Shown piece by piece: positions 39,941 to 55,329 of a DNA stretch of 64,000 nt. The DNA is from a bacterium (GTDB lineage: Bacteria > Bacillota_I > Bacilli_A > RFN20 > CAG-288): assembly GCA_963621825.1 (NCBI GenBank), contig CAVFFP010000003.1, positions 8,801-72,800 on the forward strand. Reading direction: 5' to 3'. Under the pieces are notes generated by a model. The model was given only the letters and a program-made list of their open reading frames with translations. It was not told the origin of the DNA and ran no database searches. Each line of letters begins with the position of its first letter. The stretch's first letter is position 1. Position numbers and translations under genes: made by a program.

Positions 39941-40033
39941 AAATAAATATTTATATATAACACAAGTATTATATCGATAAATGCTTTATTTTCAACTTTT
40001 TTACAAGTAAAATAATGTTTGAGGTTTTTTATT

Positions 40034-41968: not shown

Positions 41969-44564
41969 AAAAACGATTAAGCCCACCTATCAGGAAAACA
42001 TCGTCGACAGCGATATGAGCGATGTCCTTATCGGAGCATTCAACCGCTACGCGAAGGAAGTCATCACAGACCGTGCCATCCCGGACGCCAGAGACGGCTT
42101 GAAACCGGTTCAGCGCCGTATCATTTTCGATATGTTTGATAAGGGATATCTTTATAGCAAGCCTACTATCAAATGTGCTACGATCGTCGGTAATGTCATG
42201 GGACATTTCCATCCTCATGGAGATGCCTCTATCTATGATGCCTTAGTCCACCTTTCCCAGAGTTGGAAGATGGAAGCGCCTCTTGTCACTTTCCAGGGAA
42301 ACAACGGCTCTCAGGATGACGATCCTGCCGCCGCATCCCGTTATACGGAAGCTAAGCTTTCCCAGCTGAGCGAATATCTCTGCATGGATCTCGACAAGGA
42401 TACGGTCAAGATGGTCTTGACCTTTGATGATAAGGCCTTAGAACCGACTGTTCTTCCTGCCAGATTCCCGAACCTTTTGGTCAATGGCACTAGCGGTATC
42501 GCTGTCGGAAGCACAACCTATATCCCTCCTCACAACCTTTCTGAAGTCATTGACGCCTGTATCTATCGTCTCAACCACAAGAAGACCTCTCTTGTTGATT
42601 TGATGCAGTTTATCCCCGGCCCTGATTTTCCGACCGGCGGTGTCATCGATGATAAAGAGACATTGAAGACAATTTATGAGACTGGAAGTGGCAATTTCTA
42701 TCTTTACTGCCGCACTCATATCGACGAAGGCGAAAATGCCATTGTCATTACAGAACTTCCTTATGGTACGGTCAAGAAAGACTTTGTCGCCGCACTCGTA
42801 AAGAGAAAGGACACCGATCATCTCGATAACATCTCCGAAATCATCGATGAATCCGCAAAAGATGATGTCAACATCGTTATTCAGATCAAAAACGGTGCCG
42901 ATCCGAATGATATCCTTACCTATCTTCAGTCTAAAGGAGCATTAAGAACGACGATCAGCTGCAACTTCCTTGCCATCGATCACGGCCATCCGAAGAAAAT
43001 GCCTTTGATCGACTTGATTGACTCCTTCCTTAACCATCAGAGAGAAGTCTCAACCAAAGCCTATCAGTATGACTTAAAGACCTGCAAAGACCGCCTTGAG
43101 ATCGTCTCTGGCTATATGAAGGCCTATTCGATTCTCAATGAGATCATCGATAAAATCCGAAAGTGCTCTGGAAAAGAAGGCGTCAAGACGATGCTTAAGA
43201 ACGATTACGGATTTACGGATAGACAGGCAGAAGCCATCGCTATGATGCCTTTATACCGTCTTAGCAATACCGATATCGTCGCTTTAAGAAACGAAGAGAA
43301 TCAGCTTACCAATGTCGAAATTCCAAAATACGAAGCGATTCTGAATAATCCGGACAAGCTCGATAAGACGATTGCTGACATCTTAAAGGAAGTCAGAATG
43401 AAGTTCTCTAAGCCGAGAAAAACACTCATTCTCGAGGAAAAACAATCCTTTGATGCTGTTGATCAGACAAAGCTCATCGCCAAAGAGGATGTCTATGTCT
43501 GTGTGACCAATGACGGATACGCAAAGCGTACCAGTGTGAAGTCCTATCAGGCCGCTTTGAAGAACATCTCCGAGAACGACCCATATAATCTTCCGAAGAT
43601 GAAGCCCGGTGATCGTCTTGTCTATGATGGTCTCTGCGATACTCATCAGGCTCTTCTTCTCTTTACCAATACCGGAAACTACGCCTACTTGCCGATCCAC
43701 CTTCTTTCCGACTTAAAGTGGAAAGAGGAAGGAAAGCATTTGAATAACCTCATCTCTTTAAAAGCTGAGGAAAGAATTGTCAAAGCATTCCGTATCGATG
43801 AATTCAAAGCGGGTCTATATGCTGTCATGCTCACTAAAGAGAACAAAATTAAGAGAACCGCACTGAGTGAATTTGAGCAGAGTGCTCTGACAAGAAGACC
43901 GCTTCGCGCCTGCAAGATCACTGGAAAAGATGATGCTCTTGTCGATGTCGCCATCACCAGCGGAAACAGCGATGTCATCGTCTGTGATTCCTTAGGCCGT
44001 GTCAGCCGTTTCAACGAAGGGGATATCCCTGTTGTCTCGACTTCCGCCATGGGTGTAAAAGCTATCTCTTCCGGCATTGAGAACGCTCCTCTTGTCTCCC
44101 TTGTCGCATTGAATAGCAAGGAGGCATGCCTCCTTCTTCTTATCGGTGATAGACGAGGTGCAAGACTGATTCGTTCTCAGGAAGTGGAGACTTCCGAGCG
44201 TCTTGCCTTCAAGACCAACCTCATCAAGATTCTGAAGAAGAATCCGTGGACGGTCATCACGCTACAGAAGGTAAGCAGAAACAAAGACGAGCGCAATCCG
44301 ATCTCTGTCACTACCTTGGATTCTTCCTTCGCTGTCAATATCGATGCCCTCACTCCGAACGCTCCGAATTCCGAGCTGAGAGAGAACCTCGATAAGCTTG
44401 GCAAATCCAATGTCTTAGGATTCAACGACTTCGGCTCTGTCATCGGAAAAGATACGCTCGTAGAAGAGCCTGTTGTTCAGAAGACAAAGAAAGTCAATGC
44501 CAAACCGGACATTGCCGATACCCAGTTATCCCTCTTTGATCTCTTTGAACGCAATAAAAAGTAA
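41958..44564 (+). CDS. parC: DNA topoisomerase IV subunit A (ParC)
   Basis: Active-site Tyr region AAASRYTEAKL, winged-helix/tower domains; 868 aa; 11-nt overlap with parE. Confidence 0.75.
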   Translation: MKSKKTIKPTYQENIVDSDMSDVLIGAFNRYAKEVITDRAIPDARDGLKPVQRRIIFDMFDKGYLYSKPTIKCATIVGNVMGHFHPHGDASIYDALVHLSQSWKMEAPLVTFQGNNGSQDDDPAAASRYTEAKLSQLSEYLCMDLDKDTVKMVLTFDDKALEPTVLPARFPNLLVNGTSGIAVGSTTYIPPHNLSEVIDACIYRLNHKKTSLVDLMQFIPGPDFPTGGVIDDKETLKTIYETGSGNFYLYCRTHIDEGENAIVITELPYGTVKKDFVAALVKRKDTDHLDNISEIIDESAKDDVNIVIQIKNGADPNDILTYLQSKGALRTTISCNFLAIDHGHPKKMPLIDLIDSFLNHQREVSTKAYQYDLKTCKDRLEIVSGYMKAYSILNEIIDKIRKCSGKEGVKTMLKNDYGFTDRQAEAIAMMPLYRLSNTDIVALRNEENQLTNVEIPKYEAILNNPDKLDKTIADILKEVRMKFSKPRKTLILEEKQSFDAVDQTKLIAKEDVYVCVTNDGYAKRTSVKSYQAALKNISENDPYNLPKMKPGDRLVYDGLCDTHQALLLFTNTGNYAYLPIHLLSDLKWKEEGKHLNNLISLKAEERIVKAFRIDEFKAGLYAVMLTKENKIKRTALSEFEQSALTRRPLRACKITGKDDALVDVAITSGNSDVIVCDSLGRVSRFNEGDIPVVSTSAMGVKAISSGIENAPLVSLVALNSKEACLLLLIGDRRGARLIRSQEVETSERLAFKTNLIKILKKNPWTVITLQKVSRNKDERNPISVTTLDSSFAVNIDALTPNAPNSELRENLDKLGKSNVLGFNDFGSVIGKDTLVEEPVVQKTKKVNAKPDIADTQLSLFDLFERNKK

Positions 44565-44623
44565 ATATTTTGCCTATAAATCTGTTTCATTATAGAATAG
44601 AAGAAAAGAAAGGAGAAAATTCT

Positions 44624-45781
44624 ATGTTTTTCCATAAAACGAAGAGCAGTGGTGTCACTGCTGAAATCAGAGTTAAGCGCTGCTATGGATGCGGTGCCAT
44701 CCTTCAGGATCAGGATCCAAATGAAGTCGGATATATCCCGAAAGAGAAGCTGGAATCCGATCAAGAGAATCTCTGCGAACGCTGCTATAAGCTTCGCCAT
44801 TATTCCAAATACAAGGCAAGCGGTGATTTCACCATCGATTACGTGACCATCCTTTCTCGTGCCAAAGAGGAGAATGCCCTTGTCTGCTATGTCCTTAACG
44901 CTTTTTCCTTAGAGGGAAGCTTCTTAAAGGGCATCAACAAGTTCCTTCCGGAACGTTTCCTTGTAATTGTGAACAAGAGAGATTTATTGCCGAAGGATTA
45001 TTCCGACGAATACATCATCGACCGCGTCAAAGAGAAGATGGAAAAAGACGGAAATCATCCGATCGATATCCTCATCACCTCTAGCGGAAACCACAGAAAC
45101 AACATCGACGCTCTCGTCTCTTCCATCGAGAAGAACAGAAACGGAAAGAGTGTCTACTTTGTCGGTGCCTATCAGGTCGGAAAGTCCTCGTTGATCAACT
45201 GTCTTTTGATGGGTTATACCAACTCCACAGAGAAGATGATTACCACCTCTCCCTATCCTGGAACCACTTTGGACGTTATCTCCATCCCGTTAGATGAGAA
45301 TTCCTTCCTTTACGACACTCCTGGCATCTACAACTCTTCTTCCATCGTCTCTTTTGTAGAGCCTGAAATCGTCAAATATGTCCTTCCCAGAAGCGAAGTA
45401 AGACCGGAGAACTATTCCTCCAAAGAAGGTCAGTCCTTCATCCTGTCTAACCTTTGCAGGATCGACTTTGTCTCCGGCGATAAGACGAACTTCACCTTCT
45501 ATAAATCCAATGACCTTACCATTCAGAGATGCAAGACCAATAAGGCGGATAGCCTCTTTGACAGCATCGCAGGCAATGTCAATTCCGATGTCAGAAGCAA
45601 TAAGATCTCTTCCATCAAATCCATGAAGAAAGTGACATTCAAAGCGGATGGCAAAGATAATGCTCGCCTTGTCGTAAACGGTCTTCTCTTCGTCGAATTC
45701 CTCCAGAAGGGTCAGACGATCGAATGCTATGTCCCTGAGCCTGTCGAAGTCTCTTTGGAAAGCACAAGCGTGAAAAAGTAA
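44624..45781 (+). CDS. yqeH: Ribosome-biogenesis GTPase YqeH (circularly permuted GTPase with N-terminal zinc ribbon)
   Basis: CYGCGAILQDQD...CERCYKLRHY zinc ribbon, permuted G4-G1-G3 order (NKRDLL ... GAYQVGKSS ... DTPG); start moved to ATG 44624 after AAAGGAGA. Confidence 0.8.
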   Translation: MFFHKTKSSGVTAEIRVKRCYGCGAILQDQDPNEVGYIPKEKLESDQENLCERCYKLRHYSKYKASGDFTIDYVTILSRAKEENALVCYVLNAFSLEGSFLKGINKFLPERFLVIVNKRDLLPKDYSDEYIIDRVKEKMEKDGNHPIDILITSSGNHRNNIDALVSSIEKNRNGKSVYFVGAYQVGKSSLINCLLMGYTNSTEKMITTSPYPGTTLDVISIPLDENSFLYDTPGIYNSSSIVSFVEPEIVKYVLPRSEVRPENYSSKEGQSFILSNLCRIDFVSGDKTNFTFYKSNDLTIQRCKTNKADSLFDSIAGNVNSDVRSNKISSIKSMKKVTFKADGKDNARLVVNGLLFVEFLQKGQTIECYVPEPVEVSLESTSVKK

Positions 45782-46806
45782 TGTCTCTCTTCTATTATCT
45801 TTCTTCGTTCGATCCTATCGTCAATAGCGACACTGCCTTTCTACAAGACCCTGCTTTATACTTTCCTGTTCTAGGTAAGGATGTGAATGTAATCTTTCTT
45901 CCTGTTGGCAAGAACGATAACAGTCAAAAAAAAGAAATGATACAATCCCTTTATCCGGATGCTAAAATTGATGAGCGCAGTATTTCAACTTATAACGACA
46001 TAGTCATGTTCTTGAATAGCATAAGCGATACCTCTTATGTTGTATTGGAGGAATCCTTGCTTGATGAACTGATGAGCGGAAATATCGACTCCTTCTTATC
46101 CTCTTGGCCGAATGTTTTAGTGCTGAGTTCGGATGAGAAAAAAGGACACCCTTATTCTCAGATCCGATATTTCGGAAAAAGAGAAAGAGAAGAAACCGTT
46201 CACGGAAACTATCTATGGTGTCAGAAACCGGTCTTAGACCTCATCGGAGATAAAGCCTTATATTTTATGATGGATATCAAAGCGATGATCTCTACGCACC
46301 GTTATCTGCATTCTGTCTCTGTTGCAAAGACTGCCTATGAAATGGCACAAAGAAACGGACTGGATCCGATTCTCTGTTATCATGCCGGACTTCTTCATGA
46401 TATGGCTAAAGACTACAATAAAGAGAAGGCGTTAGAGATCATGAAAGAACATTACCCTTCTTTCCTACCCTGCCCGGATTTCGCTCTTCATGAATTTATC
46501 GGCGCATACCTTGCTAAGACACTCTATCATGTTCCGAAAGATGTCGTTGATATGATTCAGTATCACTGCACCGGAAAAGCGGAGATGACAAAGTATATGA
46601 AATGCCTATATTCTGCTGATGAAGTAGAGCCGCTTAGAGAATTCGAAACGGAAGAGAAGAGAAGAAGATGCATGGAGAACCTAGATGATGGGTTTCTCTA
46701 TCTTGTCGAAAAGCAGTTAGAATTTTTCAAGAAAAAACAAATCGATTACAACGAATACTTCCTCTGTAAAGAGAAGTATCGCTATTATCTGAATAACAAG
46801 GAGTAA
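45781..46806 (+). CDS. yqeK: Fusion: degenerate NadD-like (nicotinate-nucleotide adenylyltransferase fold, HxGH lost) N-terminal domain plus YqeK HD-domain phosphohydrolase
   Basis: N-terminus LSSFDPIVNSD vs NadD GGTFDPPHNGH, FLPVGKNDNSQKK vs FMPNQIPPHK; C-terminal half has HD motifs (HSVSVAKTA...AGLLHDMAK) typical of YqeK. Confidence 0.6.
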   Translation: MSLFYYLSSFDPIVNSDTAFLQDPALYFPVLGKDVNVIFLPVGKNDNSQKKEMIQSLYPDAKIDERSISTYNDIVMFLNSISDTSYVVLEESLLDELMSGNIDSFLSSWPNVLVLSSDEKKGHPYSQIRYFGKREREETVHGNYLWCQKPVLDLIGDKALYFMMDIKAMISTHRYLHSVSVAKTAYEMAQRNGLDPILCYHAGLLHDMAKDYNKEKALEIMKEHYPSFLPCPDFALHEFIGAYLAKTLYHVPKDVVDMIQYHCTGKAEMTKYMKCLYSADEVEPLREFETEEKRRRCMENLDDGFLYLVEKQLEFFKKKQIDYNEYFLCKEKYRYYLNNKE

Positions 46807-46811
46807 CAGAA

Positions 46812-47252
46812 ATGTTAAAGAAAAGCACAACACAGAAGTTTGTCCTTGCTGACAAGGGCTCAATTACAAACAAAAGGCCGCTTCACATCGCGGAAGACCT
46901 CTCCTATAACTTCGGAGAGGATGTCGTCGTCTATGATGTGAGAAACAATTCTCCGTTCGTCTCTTTCTATGTCGTCGCAAGCGCAAAGAACGAGACAAGA
47001 CTCAGAGCCTTAGTCCAGAGCGCTAAGGATGCTATCTATGACAACTATCATGAAGTCGACCATGTCGAAGGCAGAAACGATTCCAACTGGATTCTCATCG
47101 ACTGCAAAGATATCGTCGTTCAGCTCTTTGCCAAAGAGGAAAGAGAAAGAGTCGGTTTCGATCAGCTTTACAAGGATGTTCCGCATAAGATTGTCAAAGT
47201 GAGTGAAGAACCTGTCTATAGACGCAGAAAGAAGCAGGTCAAAGAATTCTAA
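46812..47252 (+). CDS. rsfS: Ribosomal silencing factor RsfS (Iojap)
   Basis: VVYDVRN...FYVVASA...HVEG..NWILIDCKDIVVQLF matches the RsfS core. Confidence 0.8.
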   Translation: MLKKSTTQKFVLADKGSITNKRPLHIAEDLSYNFGEDVVVYDVRNNSPFVSFYVVASAKNETRLRALVQSAKDAIYDNYHEVDHVEGRNDSNWILIDCKDIVVQLFAKEERERVGFDQLYKDVPHKIVKVSEEPVYRRRKKQVKEF

Positions 47253-47938
47253 TGGGCCAGCATTATTTAGTAGTCGCCGCTCAGAAAGAAGAACTCGACG
47301 GACTTTTCCAAAACAAAAAGAATGTAAGAAAAGTCTCTGACTTTCTTGTCTTAGAGGAGAATGACTATATCATCTACGGTATGATCGGCGGAATCGGTAA
47401 GGTCAGCATGGCTTATCGACTTGGCGCCTTTTTACAGGATTTCCATATCGACGAAATCATCAATATCGGTGTTGCGGGAAGCATCTCAAAAGAGGTCTTG
47501 CCGTTACAGACATTGATTGCGACAAAATGCTGCTATCACGATGTTGACGTTGTTGCATTCGGATATAAGAAGGGACAGATGTGTCAGATGCCTCTTTACT
47601 TCGATTGTGATGAGAGAGCTCTCGCATATGCTTCCTCTTTGAAGAATGACAACATCAAGACTGGTCTTATTGTCTCTGGCGATGTCTTTGTCACAAAAGA
47701 AAACCTCAGTTCTGATATCTATGAGAATTTCGATAACCCTGTTGCCTGCGATATGGAATCTGCTGCAGTTGGTCAGGTCGCACACATGGCAAAGAAACCG
47801 TACATCATCATCCGTACCATCTCCGATGATCCCAACAGCGAATCCAACAAAGACACCTACAATGCAAGACTTGTCGCTGCCAGCAATGAGGCAGGAAGAC
47901 TTGCCTATTCTTTGATTCAGTATTTAGCAGAAAATTAG
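47252..47938 (+). CDS. mtnN: 5'-methylthioadenosine/S-adenosylhomocysteine nucleosidase
   Basis: IIYGMIGGIGKVSMAY, VGVAGS, SGDVFV, DMESAAV motifs of MTA/SAH nucleosidase. Confidence 0.85.
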   Translation: MGQHYLVVAAQKEELDGLFQNKKNVRKVSDFLVLEENDYIIYGMIGGIGKVSMAYRLGAFLQDFHIDEIINIGVAGSISKEVLPLQTLIATKCCYHDVDVVAFGYKKGQMCQMPLYFDCDERALAYASSLKNDNIKTGLIVSGDVFVTKENLSSDIYENFDNPVACDMESAAVGQVAHMAKKPYIIIRTISDDPNSESNKDTYNARLVAASNEAGRLAYSLIQYLAEN

Positions 47939-48130
47939 TACTAAATAAAGACTAATAAATAGTTTTAGTAATAGTTATAATTTAGTACTAGATAATTACT
48001 AAATTAATGATACACTAGTTTTCACTAAACAAGCTCACATGTTCGTCTTAGCTGATGAATATATTTAGTATTAGATTAGTACTAGATAAATACTACAAAT
48101 TAAATTCTAATTGAGTGATACTATTTCAAT

Positions 48131-48156
48131 AAAGGTCTGGAAACAGGCCTTTTTTC
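48131..48156 (+). terminator. Hairpin with GAAA tetraloop and T6 tract (AAAGGTCTG-GAAA-CAGGCCTTT-TTTC)
   Basis: seen directly; 9-bp stem with one G-U pair, in the middle of the AT-rich region, ~190 nt beyond the mtnN stop. Confidence 0.5.
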
Positions 48157-48168
48157 AATATATAACTA

Positions 48169-48196
48169 AGTACGTATAATGGATATTATGTTAATA
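48169..48196. other. dif: Candidate dif site (XerC/XerD recombination site): AGTACGTATAA-TGGATA-TTATGTTAATA
   Basis: 22/28 identity to E. coli dif GGTGCGCATAA-TGTATA-TTATGTTAAAT and 19/28 to B. subtilis dif as recalled. XerD arm TTATGTTAA fully conserved. Located at a + to - gene-orientation switch and 1.4 kb from a xerD-like gene. Confidence 0.5.
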
Positions 48197-48389
48197 AATA
48201 AAAAAGAAACGAAATAAGTAGTATTTATCTAGTACTATATTATTACTAACGAAGAAAAAAGTTTAATCTTGAGAAATTAGTACTTAATTTCATACATTTC
48301 AAAATTAGTAATAAAAAAGTACTAAATAATAACTAACATCATTTTTATTTGCTAGTTATTATTTAGTACTAATATTTTACTAATTATCT

Positions 48390-49652
48390 TTAGTCATCTA
48401 ACAATTCAGAGATGATGTCTCCGATTTCATTCTCGCTCGGAGTTACATCAAAATTCTTAAGAACTGTTTTTCCAATGCAGGCGAAGGTATCCCTTTCCTC
48501 AATGAGTCTTCCGTAAGCATAAGAAGGAGAATAAGAGATGAGTGGGACTCTTTCTCTGGTATGATCGGTTCCCCACCAGGTAGGATCGTTTCCGTGGTCG
48601 GCAGTGATCATGAGGCAGTCGTCTTCTTTCAATACATCAAGAATCTCTTTGAGGTCCTGATCAAACTCTTCGATGCACTTACCATAACCGATAGGATCTC
48701 TTCTATGTCCATAGAGAACATCGAAGTCAGCAAGATTCACAAAGCAGAGTCCTTCAAAGTCTCTGTTCTTAGCAATGTCGAGTGTCTTCATCATTCCGTC
48801 ATGATTGCTATCGATATGATAGGATTCGTTCATTCCGCGTCCGGCGAAGATATCGTGGATTTTTCCGACTGCGATGACTTCTTTTCCGTTCTTGATTAAG
48901 TCATCTAAGGATGTATTGCCGTCCGGTTCCAAAGAATAGTCTCTTCTGTCAGTGGTTCTCTTGAAGTGACCTTTTTCGGTTCCGACGAAAGGACGGGCGA
49001 TGACTCTTCCTACTCTCCACTCCTTTTTCATTGTGATTTCACGGGCAATCTCACAGTCACGATACAATTCCTCGAGAGGAATGACATCGATGTTGGCAGC
49101 AATCTGAAGGACGGAGTCAGCGGAGGTATAGACAATCAGGGCTTTCTCACGGATGGATTCTTCTCCAAGTTCATCTAAGATGACCGTTCCGGACTGGGAA
49201 TAGTTTCCGATCAGCTTTCTTCCGGTTCTCTTAGAAAGCTCATCCATGAGTTCTTTCGGGAATCCCGTATCGGTAAAGGTGACTAACGGGTTTTCGGTCA
49301 AGATTCCCATCATTTCCCAGTGACCGGTCAAGGTGTCTTTTCCGTTGCTTCTTTCTCTCAATGTCTGAACATAGGAGTTCGGATGAGAGACTTTCTCGGT
49401 TCCTTTTACATCTGCGAGATCATGAATGCCTAAGGCGTTCATGGTGGGAACATGTAAGCCGTTCATCTTATCTGCGATGTGCACCCATGTGTTGGAGCCG
49501 ACATCGTTATGGTCACCGTTATAGAATCTGTCCGCATCGGGTTCTGCACCGATTCCGACGGAATCCATGACGATGACGAACATTCTTTTGAATTTTTTCA
49601 TTGTAGTTTCCTCTCTTGTCTTCATTTTAACTTTTTCTTTCTTTTCTTTCAA
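48390..49652 (-). CDS. deoB: Phosphopentomutase
   Basis: N-terminus KRMFVIVMDSVGIGAEPDADRF...VGSNTWVHIA matches DeoB; alkaline-phosphatase-superfamily metal ligands. Confidence 0.9.
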   Translation of the reverse strand: MKEKKEKVKMKTREETTMKKFKRMFVIVMDSVGIGAEPDADRFYNGDHNDVGSNTWVHIADKMNGLHVPTMNALGIHDLADVKGTEKVSHPNSYVQTLRERSNGKDTLTGHWEMMGILTENPLVTFTDTGFPKELMDELSKRTGRKLIGNYSQSGTVILDELGEESIREKALIVYTSADSVLQIAANIDVIPLEELYRDCEIAREITMKKEWRVGRVIARPFVGTEKGHFKRTTDRRDYSLEPDGNTSLDDLIKNGKEVIAVGKIHDIFAGRGMNESYHIDSNHDGMMKTLDIAKNRDFEGLCFVNLADFDVLYGHRRDPIGYGKCIEEFDQDLKEILDVLKEDDCLMITADHGNDPTWWGTDHTRERVPLISYSPSYAYGRLIEERDTFACIGKTVLKNFDVTPSENEIGDIISELLDD

Positions 49653-50545
49653 TGAATTGGATTTTTCGTTCTGCTTTTCTTCATGCCTTTTTCGTATTCT
49701 TGCTTCTCTTTTGTCTGTGTGATGTGAGTATAGATCTCCGTCGTTCTGATGTCTTCATGCCCTAATAAGGCTTTGACCTGAACAAGTCCAGCCCCGTTTG
49801 TCAATAATGCGGTAGCAAAGGAATGGCGCAGAGTATGAGGAGATATCTTCTTATCGATATGAGCAAGGCTAGCGTATTTCTTCAGCTGAAGGAAAAAGTA
49901 CTGTCTGCTAACCTGTTTTCCGTCAGGATGGACAAAGAACAATAGCGGATTGTCTTTGATCTTCTTCCGGTATTGTTCTTCATAATAGGTCATCGCTAGC
50001 GAACATTCCTCACTGAGAGGAAGAATTCGTTCTTTGCTTCTTTTTCCTAGTATTTTGATATATCCGCCTTTTAAATAGATATAATCCTCTCTCAAGCCGA
50101 CTAATTCAGAGACTCTTAATCCTAACGAATAAGAGATGAGAATCATCGTATAATCCAATAATCCTTTTTCCTCCTGAACAGGACATTGTTCTAAAATGCG
50201 TTTTACTTCCTCCGTAGTCAGGTAAACAGGCAGTTTTTTCTCACTTCTAGGAAGATAGATCTTCTCTAACTGTAAGTCGATGCCCTTCTCTTTTCTCAAG
50301 TAGGAGAGAAAACATCGTAGAGATGTCAGTTTCCTGATGATGGTCGAATTACAATACCCCTGTTTTACAAGTTCAGTATGATAACAGGAGAAATCTCTTT
50401 CGGTAAGAGATCCGATTTCTTCCTTTCCAAAAAGACGTTCAAAAAGGGCTAAGTCCCTAGAATAGGCGTCATAAGTCTTCTGAGAGAGACCTTTTTCACT
50501 AAGAAGATAGATAAGATACTCGTTCATTGCGTCAGAAACGGTCAT
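49649..50545 (-). CDS. xerD: Tyrosine recombinase XerD (RipX-like)
   Basis: 298 aa; C-terminal HTLRHSFATALLTNGAGLVQVKALLGHEDIRTTEIYTH with catalytic R-H-R-Y context; deoB neighbourhood as for Bsu ripX. Confidence 0.8.
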   Translation of the reverse strand: MTVSDAMNEYLIYLLSEKGLSQKTYDAYSRDLALFERLFGKEEIGSLTERDFSCYHTELVKQGYCNSTIIRKLTSLRCFLSYLRKEKGIDLQLEKIYLPRSEKKLPVYLTTEEVKRILEQCPVQEEKGLLDYTMILISYSLGLRVSELVGLREDYIYLKGGYIKILGKRSKERILPLSEECSLAMTYYEEQYRKKIKDNPLLFFVHPDGKQVSRQYFFLQLKKYASLAHIDKKISPHTLRHSFATALLTNGAGLVQVKALLGHEDIRTTEIYTHITQTKEKQEYEKGMKKSRTKNPIH

Positions 50546-51669
50546 TTCTTCGCCTTTCTTGCTGTGGTCAGCTGAATATCCATCGGAAGCTTTTCGTTGA
50601 GGAGAGAAAGGATTTCTGAGCTGTCTTCCTTTTTCTTCTCTTCTGTATCTTCTACTCTTTCCAGCATGACGCCGATAAGGCGGAAGCTCTGTCCATGGTA
50701 AATCGAATCAAATACCTTTATCGCATTGCTATATATCACTTCTAATTCATCCGTGCTTTTTGTAAGAGAGATGCGTTTGCTCTTCGTCACAAAATCCGGA
50801 GTACGGTATTTCAAGCCGATGCAGTCTGTCTTTTTATGGAACTTCACAAGTTCATTCTGACATTCCTTGGCACACTGATAAATCATCTCGGATATCTCAT
50901 CCTCATTGGATTCATCGTTGGCAAAGGTGCGTTCTGCGGAGATACTCTTCGGATTGAACTCGGAAGCATCGACAAAGTCATCTCCTATTCCATTGAGGTG
51001 GTCTTTGAGAACATCGTAATAGCTTCCTAGAATCTTTTTCTCCTCTGGAAACTGATACTGGTAGAAATCACCGATAGTGTTAATTCCGCAATCGATCAGT
51101 TTCGGTGCAGTCTTCTTTCCGACGCCAAAGAGCTTATCGATGGACAAAGGAAACAGCATCTTTTGGAAATTCTCTCTTGTGAATATAGTGATGCCTAATG
51201 GTTTTTTATAGTCGGACCCCATCTTTGCCAAAAACTTAGTCCAACCGCAGCCGATAGAACATTTCAGTTTTGTTGCACGGTATAGTTCCATGGAAAGATC
51301 AAAAAGATAATCGTGAAGATGTTCTTTATCCGCAGAGTCTGTCATATCGATATAGCATTCATCGATAGAAGCCTGTTCCAGTATCGGATACTTCTTCTTC
51401 AGATAAGAGAAGAAAGCGATGGAATTGCGTTTGTATAGGGAAAAATGAGGAGGCACAAGAATCAGGTCCCGGCATTTGTTTTTTGCGGTGCTGACTGGCA
51501 TTCCTGAATGCACACCTAAACGTCTAGCCTCATAGCTAGAGGTAGAGATAACGCCTCTTTTCCCGTCATAACCGATAGCGACAGGTTTATTGAGAAGTTC
51601 CGGGTTCTCCTTGACTTCGCACTGGACAAAGAAGCAGTTGAGATCGATATGTACGATGATCTTTTCCAT
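50542..51669 (-). CDS. dinB: DNA polymerase IV
   Basis: IIVHIDLNCFFVQCEV N-terminus (Y-family palm), little-finger domain, 375 aa. Confidence 0.85.
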   Translation of the reverse strand: MEKIIVHIDLNCFFVQCEVKENPELLNKPVAIGYDGKRGVISTSSYEARRLGVHSGMPVSTAKNKCRDLILVPPHFSLYKRNSIAFFSYLKKKYPILEQASIDECYIDMTDSADKEHLHDYLFDLSMELYRATKLKCSIGCGWTKFLAKMGSDYKKPLGITIFTRENFQKMLFPLSIDKLFGVGKKTAPKLIDCGINTIGDFYQYQFPEEKKILGSYYDVLKDHLNGIGDDFVDASEFNPKSISAERTFANDESNEDEISEMIYQCAKECQNELVKFHKKTDCIGLKYRTPDFVTKSKRISLTKSTDELEVIYSNAIKVFDSIYHGQSFRLIGVMLERVEDTEEKKKEDSSEILSLLNEKLPMDIQLTTARKAKK

Positions 51670-53318
51670 CAGCGATATTCGTTCCTCAGTTCAATAGCCT
51701 GATTTCTTGCGGCATCTGTGATATTATTTCCAGAAAGCATCTTAGCGATGAAGGAGATGATTTCCTCTTCGCTCATATTCTTAGCCGTTGTCTTTGTGAC
51801 CTTGTCGGTTGTCTTTTTCTCAATATAGATGGCACTCTTTGCACTGGATACGACTTGAGCAAGATGAGAGATGACAAGAACGGAACTGCAAGAAGAAAGA
51901 GAGGAAATCTTCTTAGCGATGAGAGCAGCTTGCTTTCCGCTGACTCCGGTATCAATCTCATCCAAGACGACTAAATCATAGGGATTAATATGGTTCAGGA
52001 CGATTTTCAAAGCCAACATAAGTCGGCTAGCTTCACCGCCGGAGGCTGCTTTTCTTAGGCTTGCCTTTTCGATGCCGTCATTGAGCTGAACTAAAAACTG
52101 ACAGTTATAAGCACCGGTATTGGTGAGTTCAGATTTTGCAAATTCGATAAAGAATCCGTTCTTTCTTAAGCCTAAGTCTGTCATCTCTTTGGAGATAGCT
52201 TTATTGAGTTTCTCAGCAGCTTTCTTTTCTGAAGCATAGAAAACTTCGGCACTTTCTTCCGCTTCTTTATAGAGTCTCTGTAACTCCTTTTCTTTCTTTT
52301 CTTTTTCCATTTCAAAAGTAGATGAGAATTCGAGTTTATCCTTGTATTCGTGATACTTTGCTAAGATTTCTTCTGTCGTTCTTCCATACTTCCTCTGTAA
52401 TGTCTTCAAAGAAAAGAGTCGTTCATTGATTTCATCGATTCGATGAGGATCAAAGTCGAGGGAATCAAAAGCATGGGAGAGACTAGAATACTGTTCTCTA
52501 ACGTTGTTTAATGCTTCTTCTAACGCTTCAGCCTTATCGGATAAGGAAGTCTCTTTCAAAGGTCTTAAAGCACGAAGAACAGAGGAGATTGAGGAGTTAA
52601 GGGAAAAATCTTCGTTTTCGACTGCGTTATCGAATGCGGCATAATCATTCTGAATCTTGCTGAACTCTTTTAAAGAGTCGAATTCTGCATTGAGGTTTTC
52701 GATCTCATGCTCTTTGAGATGGTATTTTTCGATTTCATTGATCTGATAGGTCAGATAATCGGTATCGATGTCCTTATAGGAAGAGAGGAAATCATTTCTT
52801 TCTTTCTTCTTTGCTAGGTATTCGTCGTATTTCTTCTGATAATTCTTCAGTGCTTTATTTCCTGCTTCGTCTAAGAAGCCTAACACATAAAACAGCTGTT
52901 TTTTCTCATCTAAGATATCGATATTGCTATTCTGTGAATGGATATCGATAAGATGCAAAGAGATTCTTTTCAGCTCATTCTGAGAGACGATTTCATCATT
53001 GATATAACAACGGCTGGAATGATCAGGAAGAAGCACTCTTTTTAAGATAAGCTGACCATTTTCAACGTACTCATTCACTTCTTCATGACGGGACAGAAAA
53101 TCAGAATTCAGAGTAAAAAGCGCCGATATCGTGGCTTTCTTCTCTTTGTCGCGAATCAAGGAGAAATCCGCTCTTTCTCCTAAAAGAAGATTCAAGGATG
53201 AGACAATCAATGATTTTCCGGCACCGGTCTCACCTAAAAGCGCGACATATTCGCTTTCAAAGCGTAGTGTCGTATCCTCAATGACGGCAAGATTTGATAT
53301 GTGTAGTTCCTCTAACAT
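51669..53318 (-). CDS. recN: DNA repair protein RecN
   Basis: LHISNLAVIED..GETGAGKSLI Walker A, long coiled coil, C-terminal signature and Walker B (LVVLDEIDTG). Confidence 0.9.
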   Translation of the reverse strand: MLEELHISNLAVIEDTTLRFESEYVALLGETGAGKSLIVSSLNLLLGERADFSLIRDKEKKATISALFTLNSDFLSRHEEVNEYVENGQLILKRVLLPDHSSRCYINDEIVSQNELKRISLHLIDIHSQNSNIDILDEKKQLFYVLGFLDEAGNKALKNYQKKYDEYLAKKKERNDFLSSYKDIDTDYLTYQINEIEKYHLKEHEIENLNAEFDSLKEFSKIQNDYAAFDNAVENEDFSLNSSISSVLRALRPLKETSLSDKAEALEEALNNVREQYSSLSHAFDSLDFDPHRIDEINERLFSLKTLQRKYGRTTEEILAKYHEYKDKLEFSSTFEMEKEKKEKELQRLYKEAEESAEVFYASEKKAAEKLNKAISKEMTDLGLRKNGFFIEFAKSELTNTGAYNCQFLVQLNDGIEKASLRKAASGGEASRLMLALKIVLNHINPYDLVVLDEIDTGVSGKQAALIAKKISSLSSCSSVLVISHLAQVVSSAKSAIYIEKKTTDKVTKTTAKNMSEEEIISFIAKMLSGNNITDAARNQAIELRNEYR

Positions 53319-53354
53319 GATAGCCTCCTACTAGAATATATATCCAAATAAGAC

Positions 53355-55109
53355 TTAACAGTATCTCTTTATGAAATCCTTTGCACTCTCTAAATCGATA
53401 TGACTTTCCTTCTCGATGTCAGAATTCTGGCCGTATGGATAAAACTTCTTTTCTAATGTCAAAGAATGGTAATTTCCTTTAAATCCCTTATCGAAAAGTT
53501 TTTCTTTCAAATAGGAAGAAGTTCCTTCTTCAATCGAATAAGGATCATAGAATAGAATCGTATCATAGGAAAGAAGCTCTTCTACATCAAAAGAAAGCAA
53601 GGAAATAATAAGAGCTTTATCACAGGCACAATCCACTGTTTCTTCTATCAGATAGAATCCCTTCGGTCCAACTGAGAGAAGTAGAGTGTTCTCAGCTTCT
53701 TTATGGAAGAAACAGATATCCTGATACTCAAAAGGAAGATTCGTTATAGGCATCGTTTCCTTCGGGAAGCGGATAAACACGCTTTTCATATTCTGGAATC
53801 CTTTTTCTCTCATAAGATAATCTAAACTCGTTCTATCATAGGGCATATAACAAAGAATATTAGGAATAGAACGAAGCAACGCTACATCAAAAATACCATG
53901 GTGAGAAGAACCATCCCCTCCAACCAAAGAGCATCTTTCCAGAAGGAAAAGAGCAGTGCAGCCCTGTCTAGAAAGATTCATGATGAGCTGATCGAGTCCT
54001 CTTTGCAAAAAGGTCGAATAAATATCAATGACAGGCTTTTTCCCTTTGAGAGACAGTCCGCTAGATATCGTAAGCGAACACTCTTCCGCAATACCGACGT
54101 CTAAGGTGCGGTCTGAGTATTTTGCAAACACACGAAGAAGAGAAGAGGAGGTTTCCATAGCCGGAGTAAGAACATAAATATCCGTATCCTTTTCCATCAT
54201 ATTCAAAAGGATATTCTCTTTTTCATAGGCAAAAGAAGTGTCATTATCCTCTTTTATAAATCCAGGATTGACTCCATGGTAGAATCCTTTTCCATCGTTT
54301 TCAAACTCATTGTTTCCGTATCCTTTTCTTGTCAGCACTTCTAATAAGACGGGACCTTTTTCACTTACCTGTTTTGCGGTTTCAAAGGCTTCCACAAGAG
54401 CATAAGGATCATGACCTTCGACCTTTCCAAGATAGTTAAGTCCACCGTATTTATTCGGCTCAATCGAATCTTCTCTGATCTGTTTTACATGTAAAAGATA
54501 GGATTCTTTATCGTATTCCCGAATATGATTCTCGCGGTACTGGATTCTATCTTCGCGGATTTTATCATCACTTAACGATTCCTCATCCCACTCTTTCTGT
54601 ATTGCCATACCATTCTTGTTGATGATGACAATCAGATTCTTTAGCTTAGTTCTGTTAGCAAGGACATCCATCGCTTCCTGGGCTAAGCCGTTTTTATATG
54701 AGGCATCCCCAATGAGGATGACAGTATAACTATCATTGCCGTCAAGCTGTTTCGAAAGAGCCATACCAATACCTGTAGGTAAAGCGTCTCCGGAATGACC
54801 GCTATCGTATTTATCAGAAGAGGATTCACTTCTCAGCGTAAACGGAGAGACCCCGTCAATCTGACGAAGGCGGGTAAGGTCTCTTCCAGTCAGTATTTTA
54901 TAGGCATAGCTTTGATGTCCGACATCAAAAAGAATATCATCCTTGATCGTGTCAAAGGATGATACAAGGGCTGAAGAGAGTTCAACGACACCGAGATTGG
55001 AAGTCAGATGTCCGCCGTTATGATAGACAGCAGATATGATTTTCTCTCTGATCTCTTCCGCTTCCTTGCACTTCTTCTGATAGTCGTTAAGAAAGCTATT
55101 ATCAGGCAT
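53355..55109 (-). CDS. dxs: 1-deoxy-D-xylulose-5-phosphate synthase
   Basis: GGHLTSNLGVVELS, VGHQSYAYKILTGR, GHSGDALPTGIGMA and GGDGSSHHG motifs align with Dxs TPP and histidine regions; start placed at Met-14 (55109). Confidence 0.85.
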   Translation of the reverse strand: MPDNSFLNDYQKKCKEAEEIREKIISAVYHNGGHLTSNLGVVELSSALVSSFDTIKDDILFDVGHQSYAYKILTGRDLTRLRQIDGVSPFTLRSESSSDKYDSGHSGDALPTGIGMALSKQLDGNDSYTVILIGDASYKNGLAQEAMDVLANRTKLKNLIVIINKNGMAIQKEWDEESLSDDKIREDRIQYRENHIREYDKESYLLHVKQIREDSIEPNKYGGLNYLGKVEGHDPYALVEAFETAKQVSEKGPVLLEVLTRKGYGNNEFENDGKGFYHGVNPGFIKEDNDTSFAYEKENILLNMMEKDTDIYVLTPAMETSSSLLRVFAKYSDRTLDVGIAEECSLTISSGLSLKGKKPVIDIYSTFLQRGLDQLIMNLSRQGCTALFLLERCSLVGGDGSSHHGIFDVALLRSIPNILCYMPYDRTSLDYLMREKGFQNMKSVFIRFPKETMPITNLPFEYQDICFFHKEAENTLLLSVGPKGFYLIEETVDCACDKALIISLLSFDVEELLSYDTILFYDPYSIEEGTSSYLKEKLFDKGFKGNYHSLTLEKKFYPYGQNSDIEKESHIDLESAKDFIKRYC

Positions 55110-55320: not shown

Positions 55321-55329
55321 ACTAGCCTC

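What the first reader, a model, noticed from the sequence alone, without database searches (positions are those of the whole stretch)
47936..48392. Candidate replication terminus: gene-orientation switch, AT-rich convergent spacer and a dif-like XerCD site near xerD
Left of ~48.0 kb almost every gene is on the + strand (ftsZ ... mtnN). From 48.39 kb to 62.6 kb every gene is on the - strand. In Firmicutes, which show strong co-orientation of genes with replication, a convergent switch of this kind marks the terminus; an origin would be divergent. The 450-bp spacer is ~20% GC and contains AGTACGTATAA-TGGATA-TTATGTTAATA at 48169-48196. It matches the XerD arm TTATGTTAA exactly and is 22/28 identical to E. 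coli dif. A RipX/XerD-like recombinase gene lies 1.4 kb to the right.
Basis: partly seen in the sequence, partly recalled or inferred. Interest (0 to 1): 0.7.

Follow-up and report, generated by a model that had tools for sequence, protein, structure and literature searches.

The report
Terminus dif site flanked by palindromes
The spacer holds the chromosome's dimer-resolution (dif) site at the point where the two replication arms meet, an ordinary feature in itself, but here it sits inside a conserved array of six 30-bp palindromic protein-binding sites that has no described counterpart at chromosomal dif sites.

Summary
The spacer 47939-48389 is 20.8% GC and lies between convergent mtnN (+) and deoB (-). 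The 28-mer at 48169-48196 is 22/28 identical to E. coli dif, which is the best match in 64 kb (next 18/28; P about 5e-5 in shuffled spacers).

Comparative data make it a real Xer site. In 58 related uncultured gut Bacilli ("Mollicutes"/RF39-like MAGs), one dif (ACTTCGYATAA-TNNNNA-TTATGTWAAnn) sits at the same convergent junction. That junction joins the blocks dxs-recN-dinB-xerD-deoB and parEC-yqeGH-yqeK-rsfS.

Codon-third-position GC skew shows that right-arm minus-strand genes behave like leading-strand genes.

Six copies of a 30-bp palindrome, TAGTW-N6-TAGTACTA-N6-WACTA, lie three on each side of dif and nowhere else in the window. The same arrays flank dif in about 10 sister species.

More distant relatives instead carry a DnaA-box-like TTWTCCACA and a TACTA-N6-TACTA direct repeat at a fixed distance from the XerD arm, offset in roughly 11-bp steps. 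The binding protein and its function are unknown. The likeliest roles are Xer accessory control, transcription shielding or fork pausing.

The parts
15124..47938 (+). End of the left replication arm. It is a run of mostly + strand housekeeping genes: dnaB-like, ybeY, era, recO, glyS, dnaG, sigA, relA, hisS, aspS, parE, parC, yqeH, yqeK, rsfS and mtnN.
   Evidence: ORF list and Pfam/NCBIfam scans. Coding-strand GC3 skew averages -0.168 for + genes and -0.333 for the 7 minus-strand genes left of the spacer.
47252..47938 (+). mtnN (5'-methylthioadenosine/S-adenosylhomocysteine nucleosidase), the last gene of the + arm.
   Evidence: Pfam PNP_UDP_1 at 3e-29. NCBIfam TIGR01704 scores 107 bits against a cut-off of 73.8.
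47925..47954 (.). Palindromic unit U1 (TAGCAGAAAATTAGTACTAAATAAAGACTA, 2 mismatches to the motif). It overlaps the last codons of mtnN.
   Evidence: Motif search TAGTW-N7-AGTACT-N7-WACTA gave 6 hits in the window, all in this spacer, against 0 expected.
47972..48001 (.). Palindromic unit U2 (TAGTTATAATTTAGTACTAGATAATTACTA).
48066..48095 (.). Palindromic unit U3 (TAGTATTAGATTAGTACTAGATAAATACTA). It ends 73 bp before the XerC arm and is the mirror partner of U4.
   Evidence: (inverted repeat I5, 84% complementary).
48131..48155 (+). Intrinsic terminator of the mtnN operon: a GC-rich hairpin followed by a T6 run.
   Evidence: RNA fold -12.3 kcal/mol, z = -4.9 against shuffles. The minus-strand version is weak at -7.2 kcal/mol, z = -1.4. 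In distant relatives a T-run likewise precedes dif.
48169..48196 (+). dif site: XerC-type arm AGTACGTATAA (48169-48179), central region TGGATA (48180-48185), XerD-type arm TTATGTTAATA (48186-48196).
   Evidence: 22/28 to E. coli dif, the best match in the window. P about 5e-5 in shuffled spacers. It scores 20/22 against the clade consensus and is positionally orthologous to the dif of 57 related loci.
48219..48248 (.). Palindromic unit U4 (TAGTATTTATCTAGTACTATATTATTACTA). It starts 22 bp after the XerD arm.
   Evidence: The XerD-side proximal unit lies 10-68 bp from dif in sister species.
48306..48335 (.). Palindromic unit U5 (TAGTAATAAAAAAGTACTAAATAATAACTA).
48353..48382 (.). Palindromic unit U6 (TAGTTATTATTTAGTACTAATATTTTACTA). 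It ends 7 bp before the deoB stop codon.
   Evidence: U1+U2 and U5+U6 form an 85-nt imperfect inverted repeat (I1).
48390..49652 (-). deoB (phosphopentomutase), the last gene of the minus-strand arm. The true start is probably the ATG at 49601.
   Evidence: NCBIfam phosphopentomutase NF003766 scores 518 bits. Pfam Metalloenzyme.
49649..50545 (-). XerD-like tyrosine recombinase, 298 aa.
   Evidence: Pfam Phage_integrase plus Phage_int_SAM_1. NCBIfam XerD 249 bits (cut-off 329.6), XerC 226 bits, XerS 83 bits. The xerD-deoB linkage is conserved in all relatives sampled.
48390..62636 (-). End of the right replication arm: 12 consecutive minus-strand genes. Those identified are deoB, xerD, dinB-like, recN, dxs, xseA, asp23-like, tex, a PP-loop ATPase and a class-V aminotransferase; the other two gave no family match.
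   Evidence: Coding-strand GC3 skew of -0.171 is the same as for left-arm + genes.

Best explanation
The 28-mer at 48169-48196 is the chromosomal dif site. XerC/XerD-type tyrosine recombinases, including the XerD-like enzyme encoded 1.45 kb away, would use it to resolve chromosome dimers.

It lies where the two replichores meet. Genes and replication-associated base skew converge on this spacer, so this is the terminus region of a small-genome, uncultured gut member of the Bacilli (RF39-like, 'Mollicutes' MAGs).

In this lineage dif is not a bare site. It is bracketed, three copies on each side, by a 30-bp palindrome built from four TAGTA/TACTA half-sites phased 11 bp apart (TAGTA-N6-TAGTACTA-N6-TACTA).

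What I infer, but have not shown:
- Each unit binds a dimer-of-dimers of a sequence-specific DNA-binding protein. Winged-helix proteins typically use 11-bp-phased half-sites.
- The resulting roughly 450-bp nucleoprotein array acts on events at dif.
- The most likely role is an accessory or shielding complex. It would either control Xer synapsis or XerD activation, or keep convergent transcription and replication forks from disrupting the XerCD-dif complex.

What is shown: the site, its conservation, its synteny, the skew behaviour, and the motif architecture with its conservation.

What is inferred: recombination activity, exact coincidence with fork fusion, protein binding, and the role of the array.
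For: dif as a real site:
- 22/28 to E. coli dif, and unique in the window.
- Chance probability about 5e-5.
- One orthologous site per locus in 58 related loci, with conserved arms and a variable central region.
- Always between the same two convergent gene blocks.
- A XerD-like gene is syntenic with it.

Terminus:
- Gene convergence in all relatives.
- Skew flip from +0.08 to -0.07 at dif across 55 loci.
- In-window GC3 skew: right-arm minus genes equal left-arm plus genes (-0.171 against -0.168) and differ from left-arm minus genes (-0.333, P = 0.017).
- No DnaA-box cluster in the window.

Palindrome array:
- All 5 TAGTACTA and all 6 full units in 64 kb are in the spacer, against 0.26 and 0 expected.
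- 44 units flank dif in 11 loci from sister species.
- Anchoring only on AGTACT, there are 50 copies within 900 bp of dif and 12 in the other 192 kb. The outer TAGT/ACTA are 82-86% conserved while the N6 spacers are merely AT-rich.
- The units do not fold stably as single strands.
- No Rfam match and no plasmid or phage match.

A related ancestral module:
- TACTA-N6-TACTA lies at +120..+195 from dif in 46 of 50 distant loci (expected 0.21).
- A DnaA-box-like TTWTCCACA lies at +85..+135 in 35 of 50 (expected 0.10).
- The box positions cluster at about 90, 102, 113, 124 and 133, that is in steps of about 11 bp.
Against: - Only 64 kb of the genome is visible. Uniqueness of dif and the position of the global skew extremum are untested.
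- Raw GC skew inside the window is weak (+0.015 against -0.008) and its cumulative maximum is near 41 kb rather than 48 kb.
- The recombinase scores below the XerD equivalog cut-off, and no XerC gene is in the window.
- No candidate binding protein was found. No DNA-binding gene is linked to the array in the window or within 7 kb of dif in 16 loci, and no second location of the motif was seen that could mark an autoregulated gene.
- Distances between the units and dif vary (10-68 bp on the XerD side), and helical phasing in the palindrome clade is statistically inconclusive.
- The units show no clear polarity.
Confidence: 0.8

Rival explanations
1. The palindromic units are replication-fork arrest sites. 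They would be a compact fork trap, working like B. subtilis RTP/Ter or E. coli Tus/Ter, that forces forks to fuse at dif. Each 30-bp unit would bind two dimers of a terminator protein.
For: - The architecture parallels B. subtilis Ter sites, which are 30-32 bp long, made of two imperfect inverted repeats, bound by two RTP dimers, and arranged as opposed groups bracketing the terminus with terI/terII only about 0.1 kb apart (review PMC13220808).
- The units occur only at the terminus junction.
- In distant relatives the motif is a polar direct repeat. In L016 and L028 it is mirrored, with TAGTA repeats left of dif and TACTA repeats right of it.
Against: - The B. subtilis Ter consensus (recalled from memory) does not match: the best score is 18/25 and lies outside the spacer.
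- No RTP-domain gene appeared among the window ORFs scanned with Pfam or next to dif in relatives.
- The units are near-perfect palindromes without demonstrable polarity. Non-polar blocks on both sides of dif would leave the 120-bp core unreplicated.
- The fixed, helically phased distance to dif in distant relatives is not needed for a fork barrier.
Confidence: 0.2
2. dif is genuine, but the spacer is not where replication ends. dif would be kept next to xerD as a recombinase-site module, as in XerS/difSL and XerH/difH, and the convergent junction would be a conserved operon boundary.
For: - Site-recombinase linkage is described as a hallmark of single-recombinase Xer modules (PMC5357621).
- xerD-deoB-dif linkage holds in every relative sampled.
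- Raw GC skew in the window is weak, with its cumulative maximum near 41 kb.
- Only 16 kb of the right arm is visible.
Against: - The site has a classical 11-6-11 architecture and the recombinase is 298 aa. Its XerS model score is 83 bits against a cut-off of 267.
- The GC3-skew test indicates that replication direction reverses at the spacer.
- Strand bias of 32/39 genes on the left and 12/12 on the right.
- The published dif/skew correlation.
Confidence: 0.1
3. The palindromes are operators or roadblock sites of a local transcription factor regulating the flanking nucleoside-metabolism genes (mtnN, deoB), and are unrelated to dif.
For: - Both flanking genes act on nucleosides.
- The palindromes occur only in the subclade where mtnN is the gene next to dif. 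That is 7 of the 16 loci compared; an eighth palindrome locus, L005, ends before that side.
Against: - Both genes point into the spacer, so the sites are downstream of both.
- In L005, L006, L008 and L009 two transporter genes separate deoB from dif, yet the units still bracket dif.
- No unit lies upstream of any gene in the 64-kb window.
- The half-motif is tied to dif at a fixed distance in 46 of 50 distant relatives that lack mtnN at this position.
Confidence: 0.07
4. The spacer is the remnant of a mobile element, either a MITE with 85-nt terminal inverted repeats or a Xer-exploiting integrative element or plasmid-type cer site with accessory sequences. On this view the dif-like sequence is its attachment or resolution site.
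For: - The spacer is a large imperfect inverted repeat (I1: 85-nt arms, 74% complementary).
- Iteron-like 11-bp repeats plus a DnaA box, as seen in distant relatives, resemble theta-plasmid origins (background knowledge).
- In distant relatives variable PemK-like toxin genes sit next to dif.
Against: - No similarity to any plasmid or phage record.
- There is only one dif per locus and no second flanking dif, which an integrated Xer-exploiting element would create.
- The flanks are conserved housekeeping operons in 58 species.
- The unit spacers are not conserved in sequence, as expected for selection on binding positions rather than for copies of an element.
- No other copies in 64 kb or in the 21-kb loci.
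Confidence: 0.04
5. The 28-mer is a chance resemblance in AT-rich DNA and the spacer is just a convergent terminator region.
For: The spacer is 21% GC, and the core of dif is AT-rich and contains a TATAAT-like hexamer.
Against: P about 5e-5 in shuffles. Orthologous, equally oriented sites in 57 related loci have invariant arm positions.
Confidence: 0.01

Closest known systems
Chromosomal XerCD/dif (E. coli dif; B. subtilis CodV-RipX/dif)
   Same: - 28 bp with an 11-6-11 layout and the inner ATAA/TTAT motifs.
- 22/28 identity to E. coli dif.
- The clade consensus ACTTCGYATAA-TNNNNA-TTATGTWAA is close to B. subtilis ACTTCCTAGAATATATATTATGTAAACT. Some relatives carry the B. subtilis XerD arm TTATGTAAACT exactly.
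- It is intergenic, lies at the convergence of the replichores, and a XerD-type gene is present.
   Different: - Chromosomal dif sites are described as acting without accessory sequences. Here dif is bracketed by six conserved 30-bp palindromes or, in relatives, by a phased DnaA-box-like site plus direct repeats.
- dif is tightly linked to xerD (1.45 kb away here).
- The outer XerC-arm positions are unusually variable in the palindrome-bearing subclade.
Plasmid Xer sites cer/psi with accessory sequences (ArgR/ArcA plus PepA)
   Same: A Xer core site sits next to about 200 bp of DNA carrying binding sites for other proteins. In distant relatives the accessory motifs keep a fixed, helically phased distance from the core.
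   Different: - The location is chromosomal, in conserved housekeeping synteny.
- The motifs are unrelated to cer/psi, and there is no match to plasmid records.
- The sites lie on both sides of the core (on the XerD-arm side in distant relatives), whereas cer/psi accessory DNA lies on the XerC side (background knowledge).
B. subtilis RTP/Ter replication fork trap
   Same: - Sites of about 30 bp composed of inverted half-sites for two protein dimers.
- They are clustered in opposed groups at the terminus near dif.
- There is partial sequence resemblance (GTACTAAAT).
   Different: - The Ter consensus does not match.
- No rtp gene is linked.
- The units are symmetric.
- All six units lie within 250 bp of dif, instead of being spread over about 10% of the chromosome.
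E. coli MatP/matS terminus organiser
   Same: Short palindromic sites found specifically in the terminus region, with copies flanking dif.
   Different: - matS is a 13-bp GTGACRNYGTCAC site spread over about 800 kb.
- There is no matS-like sequence in the spacer.
- MatP is confined to enterobacteria and their relatives (background knowledge).
B. subtilis Rok (winged-helix nucleoid protein preferring TACTA/AACTA)
   Same: The half-site here is TACTA, which is Rok's top-ranked pentamer (PMC6212790). In B. subtilis Rok also co-occupies some sites with DnaA (background knowledge), which echoes the DnaA-box plus TACTA module in relatives.
   Different: - Rok homologues are reported only in some Bacillus species, and no Rok-like gene was tested or found here.
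- Rok has loose AT-rich specificity, not a 30-bp phased tetramer site.
- The 'ROK family' kinase at 12640-13518 is an unrelated family.

Membership tests
XerCD/dif chromosome dimer resolution site | A 28-bp site made of two 11-bp imperfectly inverted arms around a 6-bp central region, similar to experimentally defined dif sites. | tested here: met
   AGTACGTATAA-TGGATA-TTATGTTAATA. It is 22/28 to E. coli dif and 19/28 to B. subtilis dif, with P about 5e-5 in shuffles. The reference dif sequences were taken from memory.
XerCD/dif chromosome dimer resolution site | Conservation of the arms, with a freer central region, at an orthologous intergenic position in related genomes. | tested here: met
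   58 loci each carry one site scoring 18-22/22 (all but one at least 19) against a background of at most 18. All have the same orientation and the same gene junction.
XerCD/dif chromosome dimer resolution site | A single copy per chromosome. | not testable with these tools
   It is unique in the 64-kb window and in each 21-kb related locus. The rest of the genome is not available.
XerCD/dif chromosome dimer resolution site | Location at the GC-skew shift point or replication terminus. | tested here: inconclusive
   Local evidence agrees: gene convergence, an aggregate skew flip and the GC3-skew test at P = 0.017. The whole-chromosome skew cannot be computed, and raw skew in the window is weak.
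XerCD/dif chromosome dimer resolution site | Cognate XerC and XerD recombinases are encoded in the genome. | tested here: inconclusive
   One XerC/D-family gene is at 49649-50545. It scores XerD 249 bits (below the 329.6 cut-off) and XerC 226 bits. No second Xer gene is in the window, and the rest of the genome is unseen.
XerCD/dif chromosome dimer resolution site | Recombination at the site, activated by an FtsK/SpoIIIE-type translocase. | not testable with these tools
   This needs experiment.
Single-recombinase Xer modules (XerS/difSL, XerH/difH) | An atypical site (31 bp, 11-bp central region) and a recombinase of about 355 aa encoded immediately beside it. | tested here: not met
   The central region is 6 bp and the recombinase is 298 aa. 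The XerS model scores 83 bits against a cut-off of 267. The gene is linked but separated from the site by deoB. The family features are taken from PMC5357621.
RTP/Ter fork trap (Bacillus) | Sites matching the Ter consensus KMACTAANWNNWCTATGTACYAAATNTTC. | tested here: not met
   No match with up to 3 mismatches. The best score of 18/25 lies outside the spacer. The consensus was recalled from memory.
RTP/Ter fork trap (Bacillus) | An rtp gene, normally adjacent to the inner Ter sites. | tested here: not met
   No RTP domain appeared in the roughly 50 window ORFs scanned with Pfam. The genes next to dif in 16 loci are enzymes, transporters or PemK-like proteins. The rest of the genome was not searched.
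RTP/Ter fork trap (Bacillus) | Polar (asymmetric) sites arranged in two opposed groups around the terminus. | tested here: inconclusive
   There are two groups of three units around dif, but the units are symmetric. The only hint of mirrored asymmetry is at position 21, and it is not significant after multiple testing.
Plasmid cer/psi-type Xer site with accessory sequences | A plasmid-borne core site with about 180 bp of accessory DNA bound by ArgR or ArcA plus PepA. | tested here: not met
   The context is chromosomal and syntenic. No plasmid similarity was found. ARG-box or ArcA-box content was not specifically scanned.
MatP/matS | 13-bp GTGACRNYGTCAC sites in the terminus region. | tested here: not met
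   With up to 1 mismatch there are only two hits, at 33.8 and 38.7 kb, and none in the spacer.

The most novel reading that the evidence does not exclude
In this lineage the chromosomal dif site works as part of a dedicated accessory nucleoprotein complex. An unidentified TACTA-binding protein, joined by DnaA in the more distant relatives, would be positioned in helical register with the XerD arm. It would control chromosome dimer resolution, for example by substituting for or gating FtsK-type activation of XerD, or it would couple termination to DnaA activity. This would be the first chromosomal dif with conserved accessory sites. In the window's subclade the system has been rebuilt as a 3+3 array of 30-bp palindromes, together with relaxed conservation of the XerC arm.
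Probability: 0.3. Interest if true: 0.75.

Novelty: new variant of a known kind. Interest (0 to 1): 0.5.

Why it matters
As a dif site at a terminus, this is a routine though useful annotation. It anchors the replication map of an uncultured, reduced-genome gut lineage for which no experimental data exist. It also gives a clade-specific dif consensus, with conserved synteny, that can be used to orient MAG assemblies and to interpret growth-rate estimates from coverage.

The part that could matter more is the conserved protein-binding architecture around dif. Chromosomal dif sites are thought to need only XerCD and a septal translocase, and accessory sequences are regarded as a plasmid device.

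A site-specific array exclusive to dif, together with a phased DnaA-box-like element in dozens of related species, points to one of two things. Either there is an unrecognised layer of control of dimer resolution, or there is a new terminus-organising or fork-pausing factor in Firmicutes outside Bacillus. The 30-bp unit is a ready-made bait for finding that protein.

Tried and rejected
- **Exact-protein look-ups.** These were meant to recover the source contig. deoB with its TTG start is not on record. XerD returned only a 5-kb contig that ends inside deoB, so no larger genomic context was obtained.
- **First dif consensus scan.** It had an off-by-one error in the pattern and was redone correctly.
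- **Viral and metagenome scans with the palindrome pattern.** Apart from five relatives' dif loci (L121, L149, L151, L171, L217), the hits were single chance matches. The rest were 11-bp tandem repeats or very AT-rich non-coding DNA such as L193, which is unrelated.
- **Literature search for TAGTACTA.** It returned only primers and unrelated papers. A search for dif plus DnaA box found no precedent.
- **Structured-RNA idea.** Some loci showed variable stems around the DnaA-box-like sequence, which suggested an RNA. RNAalifold found no consensus structure in 28 sequences and Rfam found nothing. The conserved elements are therefore primary-sequence DNA motifs, and the stems are probably ordinary terminators at varying positions.
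- **Hairpin or cruciform role for the units.** They do not fold better than shuffles.
- **Search for a linked binding-protein gene.** None was found within 7 kb of dif in 16 loci. The variable gene beside dif in distant relatives is PemK/MazF-like, not a DNA-binding regulator. The 700-bp gap between units in L003 holds no plausible small gene.
- **Genome-wide avoidance of TACTA, as in Rok-bearing genomes.** TAGTA/TACTA are not under-represented outside the spacer (observed/expected 1.12).
- **Helical phasing of the units relative to dif in the palindrome clade.** The result is inconclusive.

Full report
**What is in the sequence**

The spacer 47939-48389 separates the stop codon of a + strand MTA/SAH nucleosidase gene (mtnN, 47252-47938) from the stop codon of a minus-strand phosphopentomutase gene (deoB, 48390-49652). 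It is 20.8% GC.

- It matches E. coli dif at 22 of 28 positions. The next best 28-mer on either strand of the 64-kb window reaches 18.
- The XerD-arm core TTATGTWAA occurs once in the window.
- Shuffling the AT-rich spacer itself 20,000 times gave a match of at least 22/28 once.

A 298-aa tyrosine recombinase gene lies at 49649-50545 (-). Its best family match is XerD at 249 bits, below NCBI's equivalog cut-off of 329.6. XerC scores 226 bits and XerS only 83.

Gene orientation is as described.
- Left of the spacer, 32 of 39 genes are on the + strand. They include an FtsQ-like gene (weak POTRA match), an FtsA-like gene (weak match), ftsZ, pheST, mraZ/W, dnaG-sigA, relA, hisS-aspS, parE-parC, yqeH, yqeK, rsfS and mtnN.
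- Right of it, the 12 genes up to 62636 are all on the - strand. Those identified are deoB, xerD, a dinB-like polymerase, recN, dxs, xseA, asp23-like, tex, a PP-loop ATPase and a class-V aminotransferase; two gave no family match.
- A + strand gene begins near 62.86 kb.

**Is it a real dif site?**

I used the deoB protein to fetch syntenic loci from one genome per species. The relatives are uncultured gut 'Mollicutes/Bacilli/Bacillales' MAGs, among them Ca. Enterosoma, Scatoplasma and Onthovivens. This is my reading of an RF39-like group. The best hit is only 79% identical, so the source species itself is not in that collection.

In 57 of the 80 fetched loci, plus the window, a single 28-mer scores 19-22 of 22 specified positions against the consensus ACTTCGYATAA-TNNNNA-TTATGTWAAnn (one, L070, scores 18). 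Background sequences score at most 18. The loci without a site are short contigs or Clostridia-type genomes.

The site is always in the same orientation relative to deoB and always lies 0.2-4 kb downstream of it. A map of 16 loci shows the same two convergent blocks everywhere:
- on one side, dxs-recN-dinB-xerD-deoB, sometimes followed by a lipoprotein, an ABC permease and a small variable gene;
- on the other side, parE-parC-yqeG-yqeH-(yqeI)-yqeK-rsfS-(mtnN).

The arms are nearly invariant while the four inner central positions vary. This is the pattern expected of a recombinase target. Several relatives carry the B. subtilis XerD arm TTATGTAAACT exactly. I regard the dif assignment as secure. 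Recombination itself is of course inferred.

**Is it the terminus?**

Raw GC skew in the window is weak, and its cumulative curve peaks near 41 kb. On its own it decides nothing.

Averaged over 55 related loci, plus-strand GC skew is +0.05 to +0.11 in every 1-kb bin left of dif and -0.05 to -0.11 right of it. The sign changes in the bin containing dif. Gene strand flips at the same place, so this result is confounded.

To separate the two effects I compared coding-strand GC skew at third codon positions within the window.

| Gene group | n | Coding-strand GC3 skew |
|---|---|---|
| Left arm, + strand | 32 | -0.168 |
| Left arm, - strand | 7 | -0.333 |
| Right arm, - strand | 12 | -0.171 |

- Right-arm minus genes are indistinguishable from left-arm plus genes (Mann-Whitney P = 0.98).
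- They differ from left-arm minus genes (P = 0.017).

So the minus strand on the right behaves like the plus strand on the left, that is as a leading strand. This is what a replication-direction switch at the spacer predicts.

Two further points agree. There is no DnaA-box cluster in the window. A survey of 641 genomes found dif within about 1.4% of genome length of the skew shift point (PMC3025954).

I put the terminus reading at about 0.85. Whole-chromosome skew, read-coverage minima and genome-wide uniqueness of dif could not be tested.

The spacer is built around a repeated 30-bp palindrome, TAGTW-N6-TAGTACTA-N6-WACTA.
- There are six copies: 47925, 47972 and 48066 on the XerC-arm side, and 48219, 48306 and 48353 on the XerD-arm side.
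- All five TAGTACTA octamers in 64 kb are in these 451 bp (expected 0.26). No full unit occurs elsewhere (expected 0).
- The layout is mirror-symmetric. Spacings are 47 and 94 bp on one side and 87 and 47 bp on the other. U1+U2 pair with U5+U6 as an 85-nt imperfect inverted repeat, and U3 pairs with U4.
- A strong + strand intrinsic terminator lies between U3 and dif (48131-48155; -12.3 kcal/mol, z = -4.9).

**The array is conserved**

The same units bracket dif in the closest relatives (L002, L003, L005, L006, L008, L009, L010) and in further metagenomic relatives (L121, L149, L217). Altogether there are 44 units, two to three per side.

To avoid circularity I anchored only on the central AGTACT.
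- There are 50 copies within 900 bp of dif (18 kb in total) against 12 in the remaining 192 kb.
- The outer TAGT and ACTA are present in 82-86% of them.
- The flanking T and A of TAGTACTA are present in 88-92%.
- The six-base spacers are AT-rich but not conserved.

The units do not fold stably as single strands. Nothing in Rfam matches. The spacer has no relatives among plasmid or phage records.

Conserved contact positions, free spacers, 11-bp phasing of four half-sites and exclusive location all indicate a binding site for a sequence-specific protein, probably two dimers per unit. Eleven-base-pair phased half-sites are typical of winged-helix proteins; this is background knowledge.

**A related module in more distant relatives**

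The 50 more distant loci have no palindromes. On the XerD-arm side of dif they carry two elements.
- A direct repeat TACTA-N6-TACTA, half a palindromic unit, at +120 to +195 in 46 of 50 loci (0.21 expected).
- A DnaA-box-like TTWTCCACA at +85 to +135 in 35 of 50 loci (0.10 expected).

The box positions cluster at about 90, 101-103, 112-117, 121-125 and 133. These are steps of roughly one helical turn, with no half-turn offsets. The box-to-repeat distance clusters at about 17, 28, 40 and 50.

RNAalifold finds no shared structure there. These are therefore DNA motifs kept in helical register with dif. Two loci (L016, L028) also have TAGTA direct repeats on the other side, mirrored about dif.

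The window's subclade seems to have lost the DnaA-box-like element (none within 600 bp, except one in L003) and multiplied the TACTA motif into palindromic units on both sides. In the same subclade the outer XerC-arm positions 1, 2 and 4 are only 50-70% conserved, against at least 96% elsewhere.

**How it most likely works**

- Shown: a conserved Xer target at a conserved convergent junction with leading-strand-like skew on both sides, embedded in a conserved, dif-exclusive array of protein-binding-type motifs.
- Inferred: XerC/XerD resolve chromosome dimers here, and an unidentified TACTA-recognising protein coats about 250 bp on each side.

My preferred reading is an accessory or insulating complex. 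The fixed, phased spacing to the XerD arm in dozens of species is what one expects if the bound proteins touch the Xer synapse, as the accessory proteins do at plasmid cer/psi. It is not required for a fork barrier. The units also lie in the path of both convergent operons, so they could additionally shield dif from transcription.

A fork-trap function like RTP/Ter is the main rival.
- For: the 30-bp, two-dimer architecture and the terminus location are similar (PMC13220808).
- Against: the Ter consensus does not match, no rtp gene is linked, and the units lack demonstrable polarity.

The pentamer TACTA is the preferred target of the B. subtilis winged-helix protein Rok (PMC6212790). That is a lead, not a test. 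No Rok-like gene was examined, and TACTA is not depleted in this window.

**Comparison with known systems, and novelty**

As a dif site, this is a new member of a very well-known kind. It is not a XerS/XerH-type module: the central region is 6 bp and the recombinase is 298 aa. The persistent xerD-deoB-dif linkage does recall those modules (PMC5357621).

The flanking array and the phased DnaA-box/direct-repeat module have no counterpart that I could find in the literature searched. They differ from the matS, Ter and cer/psi accessory sequences. I therefore rate the whole as a new variant of a known kind, of moderate interest. The annotation itself is ordinary, but the architecture around it is a concrete, testable pointer to an unknown dif- or terminus-associated DNA-binding factor in an uncultured lineage.

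Noticed in passing
L011-L079 (e.g. L062:13712-13837, L016:11305-11430), 85-195 bp from dif on the XerD-arm side: About 45 distant relatives carry a DnaA-box-like TTWTCCACA and a TACTA-N6-TACTA direct repeat at a nearly fixed distance from dif. The offsets are quantised in steps of about 11 bp. A DnaA box beside a terminus dif site is unexplained.
   Followed up: partly
window 48169-48172, and dif of L002, L003, L009, L010, L149, L217: In the palindrome-bearing subclade the outer XerC-arm positions 1, 2 and 4 vary (50-70% consensus), whereas they are at least 96% conserved (ACTTCG) in 50 other relatives. This may mean an altered or relaxed XerC partner.
   Followed up: partly
L011:13740-14303, L062:13063-13728, L070:12982-13608, and the equivalent slot in L018, L032 and L046: The gene immediately beside dif in distant relatives is a fast-diverging protein of 170-220 aa. 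It is PemK/MazF-toxin-like in L011 and L062 (L070 clusters with them by BLAST), and Pfam finds no family in L018, L032 and L046. So there is a variable slot next to dif. It is absent at this position in the window.
   Followed up: partly
window 40019-44564: Topoisomerase IV genes parE-parC lie 3.6-8 kb from dif and are part of the conserved block that converges on dif in all relatives. xerD and recN lie on the other side. Several chromosome-segregation functions are therefore clustered at the terminus.
   Followed up: no
window 18632-19501: A single 289-aa ORF combines a YbeY endoribonuclease domain (residues 15-149) with a cytidine/deoxycytidylate deaminase domain (152-252). These are separate neighbouring genes in B. 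subtilis, so this may be a gene fusion.
   Followed up: no
window 1265-2425: The gene between the FtsQ-like gene and ftsZ matches FtsA only weakly (29.6 bits, cut-off 176). It also matches the mycoplasma 'MAG3720 family' model, so it is a very divergent FtsA-like protein.
   Followed up: no
window 8074-8565, 16365-17342, 38148-39101, 57023-57544, 60050-60487: Five ORFs of 145-325 aa have no Pfam or NCBIfam match. None is adjacent to the palindrome array, so none was pursued as the binding protein.
   Followed up: no
L003:12100-12450: In L003 the array is stretched: units lie 500 and 825 bp from dif. The gap holds what looks like decayed coding sequence and no intact ORF. A DnaA-box-like TTATCCACT abuts one unit at 12083.
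   Followed up: partly
L193:5860-6700 and similar very AT-rich metagenome contigs (L102, L122, L125, L186, L190, L196, L198, L204): Non-coding DNA of 15-22% GC, from an unrelated and probably eukaryotic or organellar source, carries tandem CCGTAGTACTA-type repeats that matched the palindrome pattern by chance. It has no connection with dif.
   Followed up: partly
window 12640-13518: This is a ROK-family sugar kinase (Pfam PF00480). It is unrelated to the nucleoid protein Rok discussed above, despite the name.
   Followed up: yes
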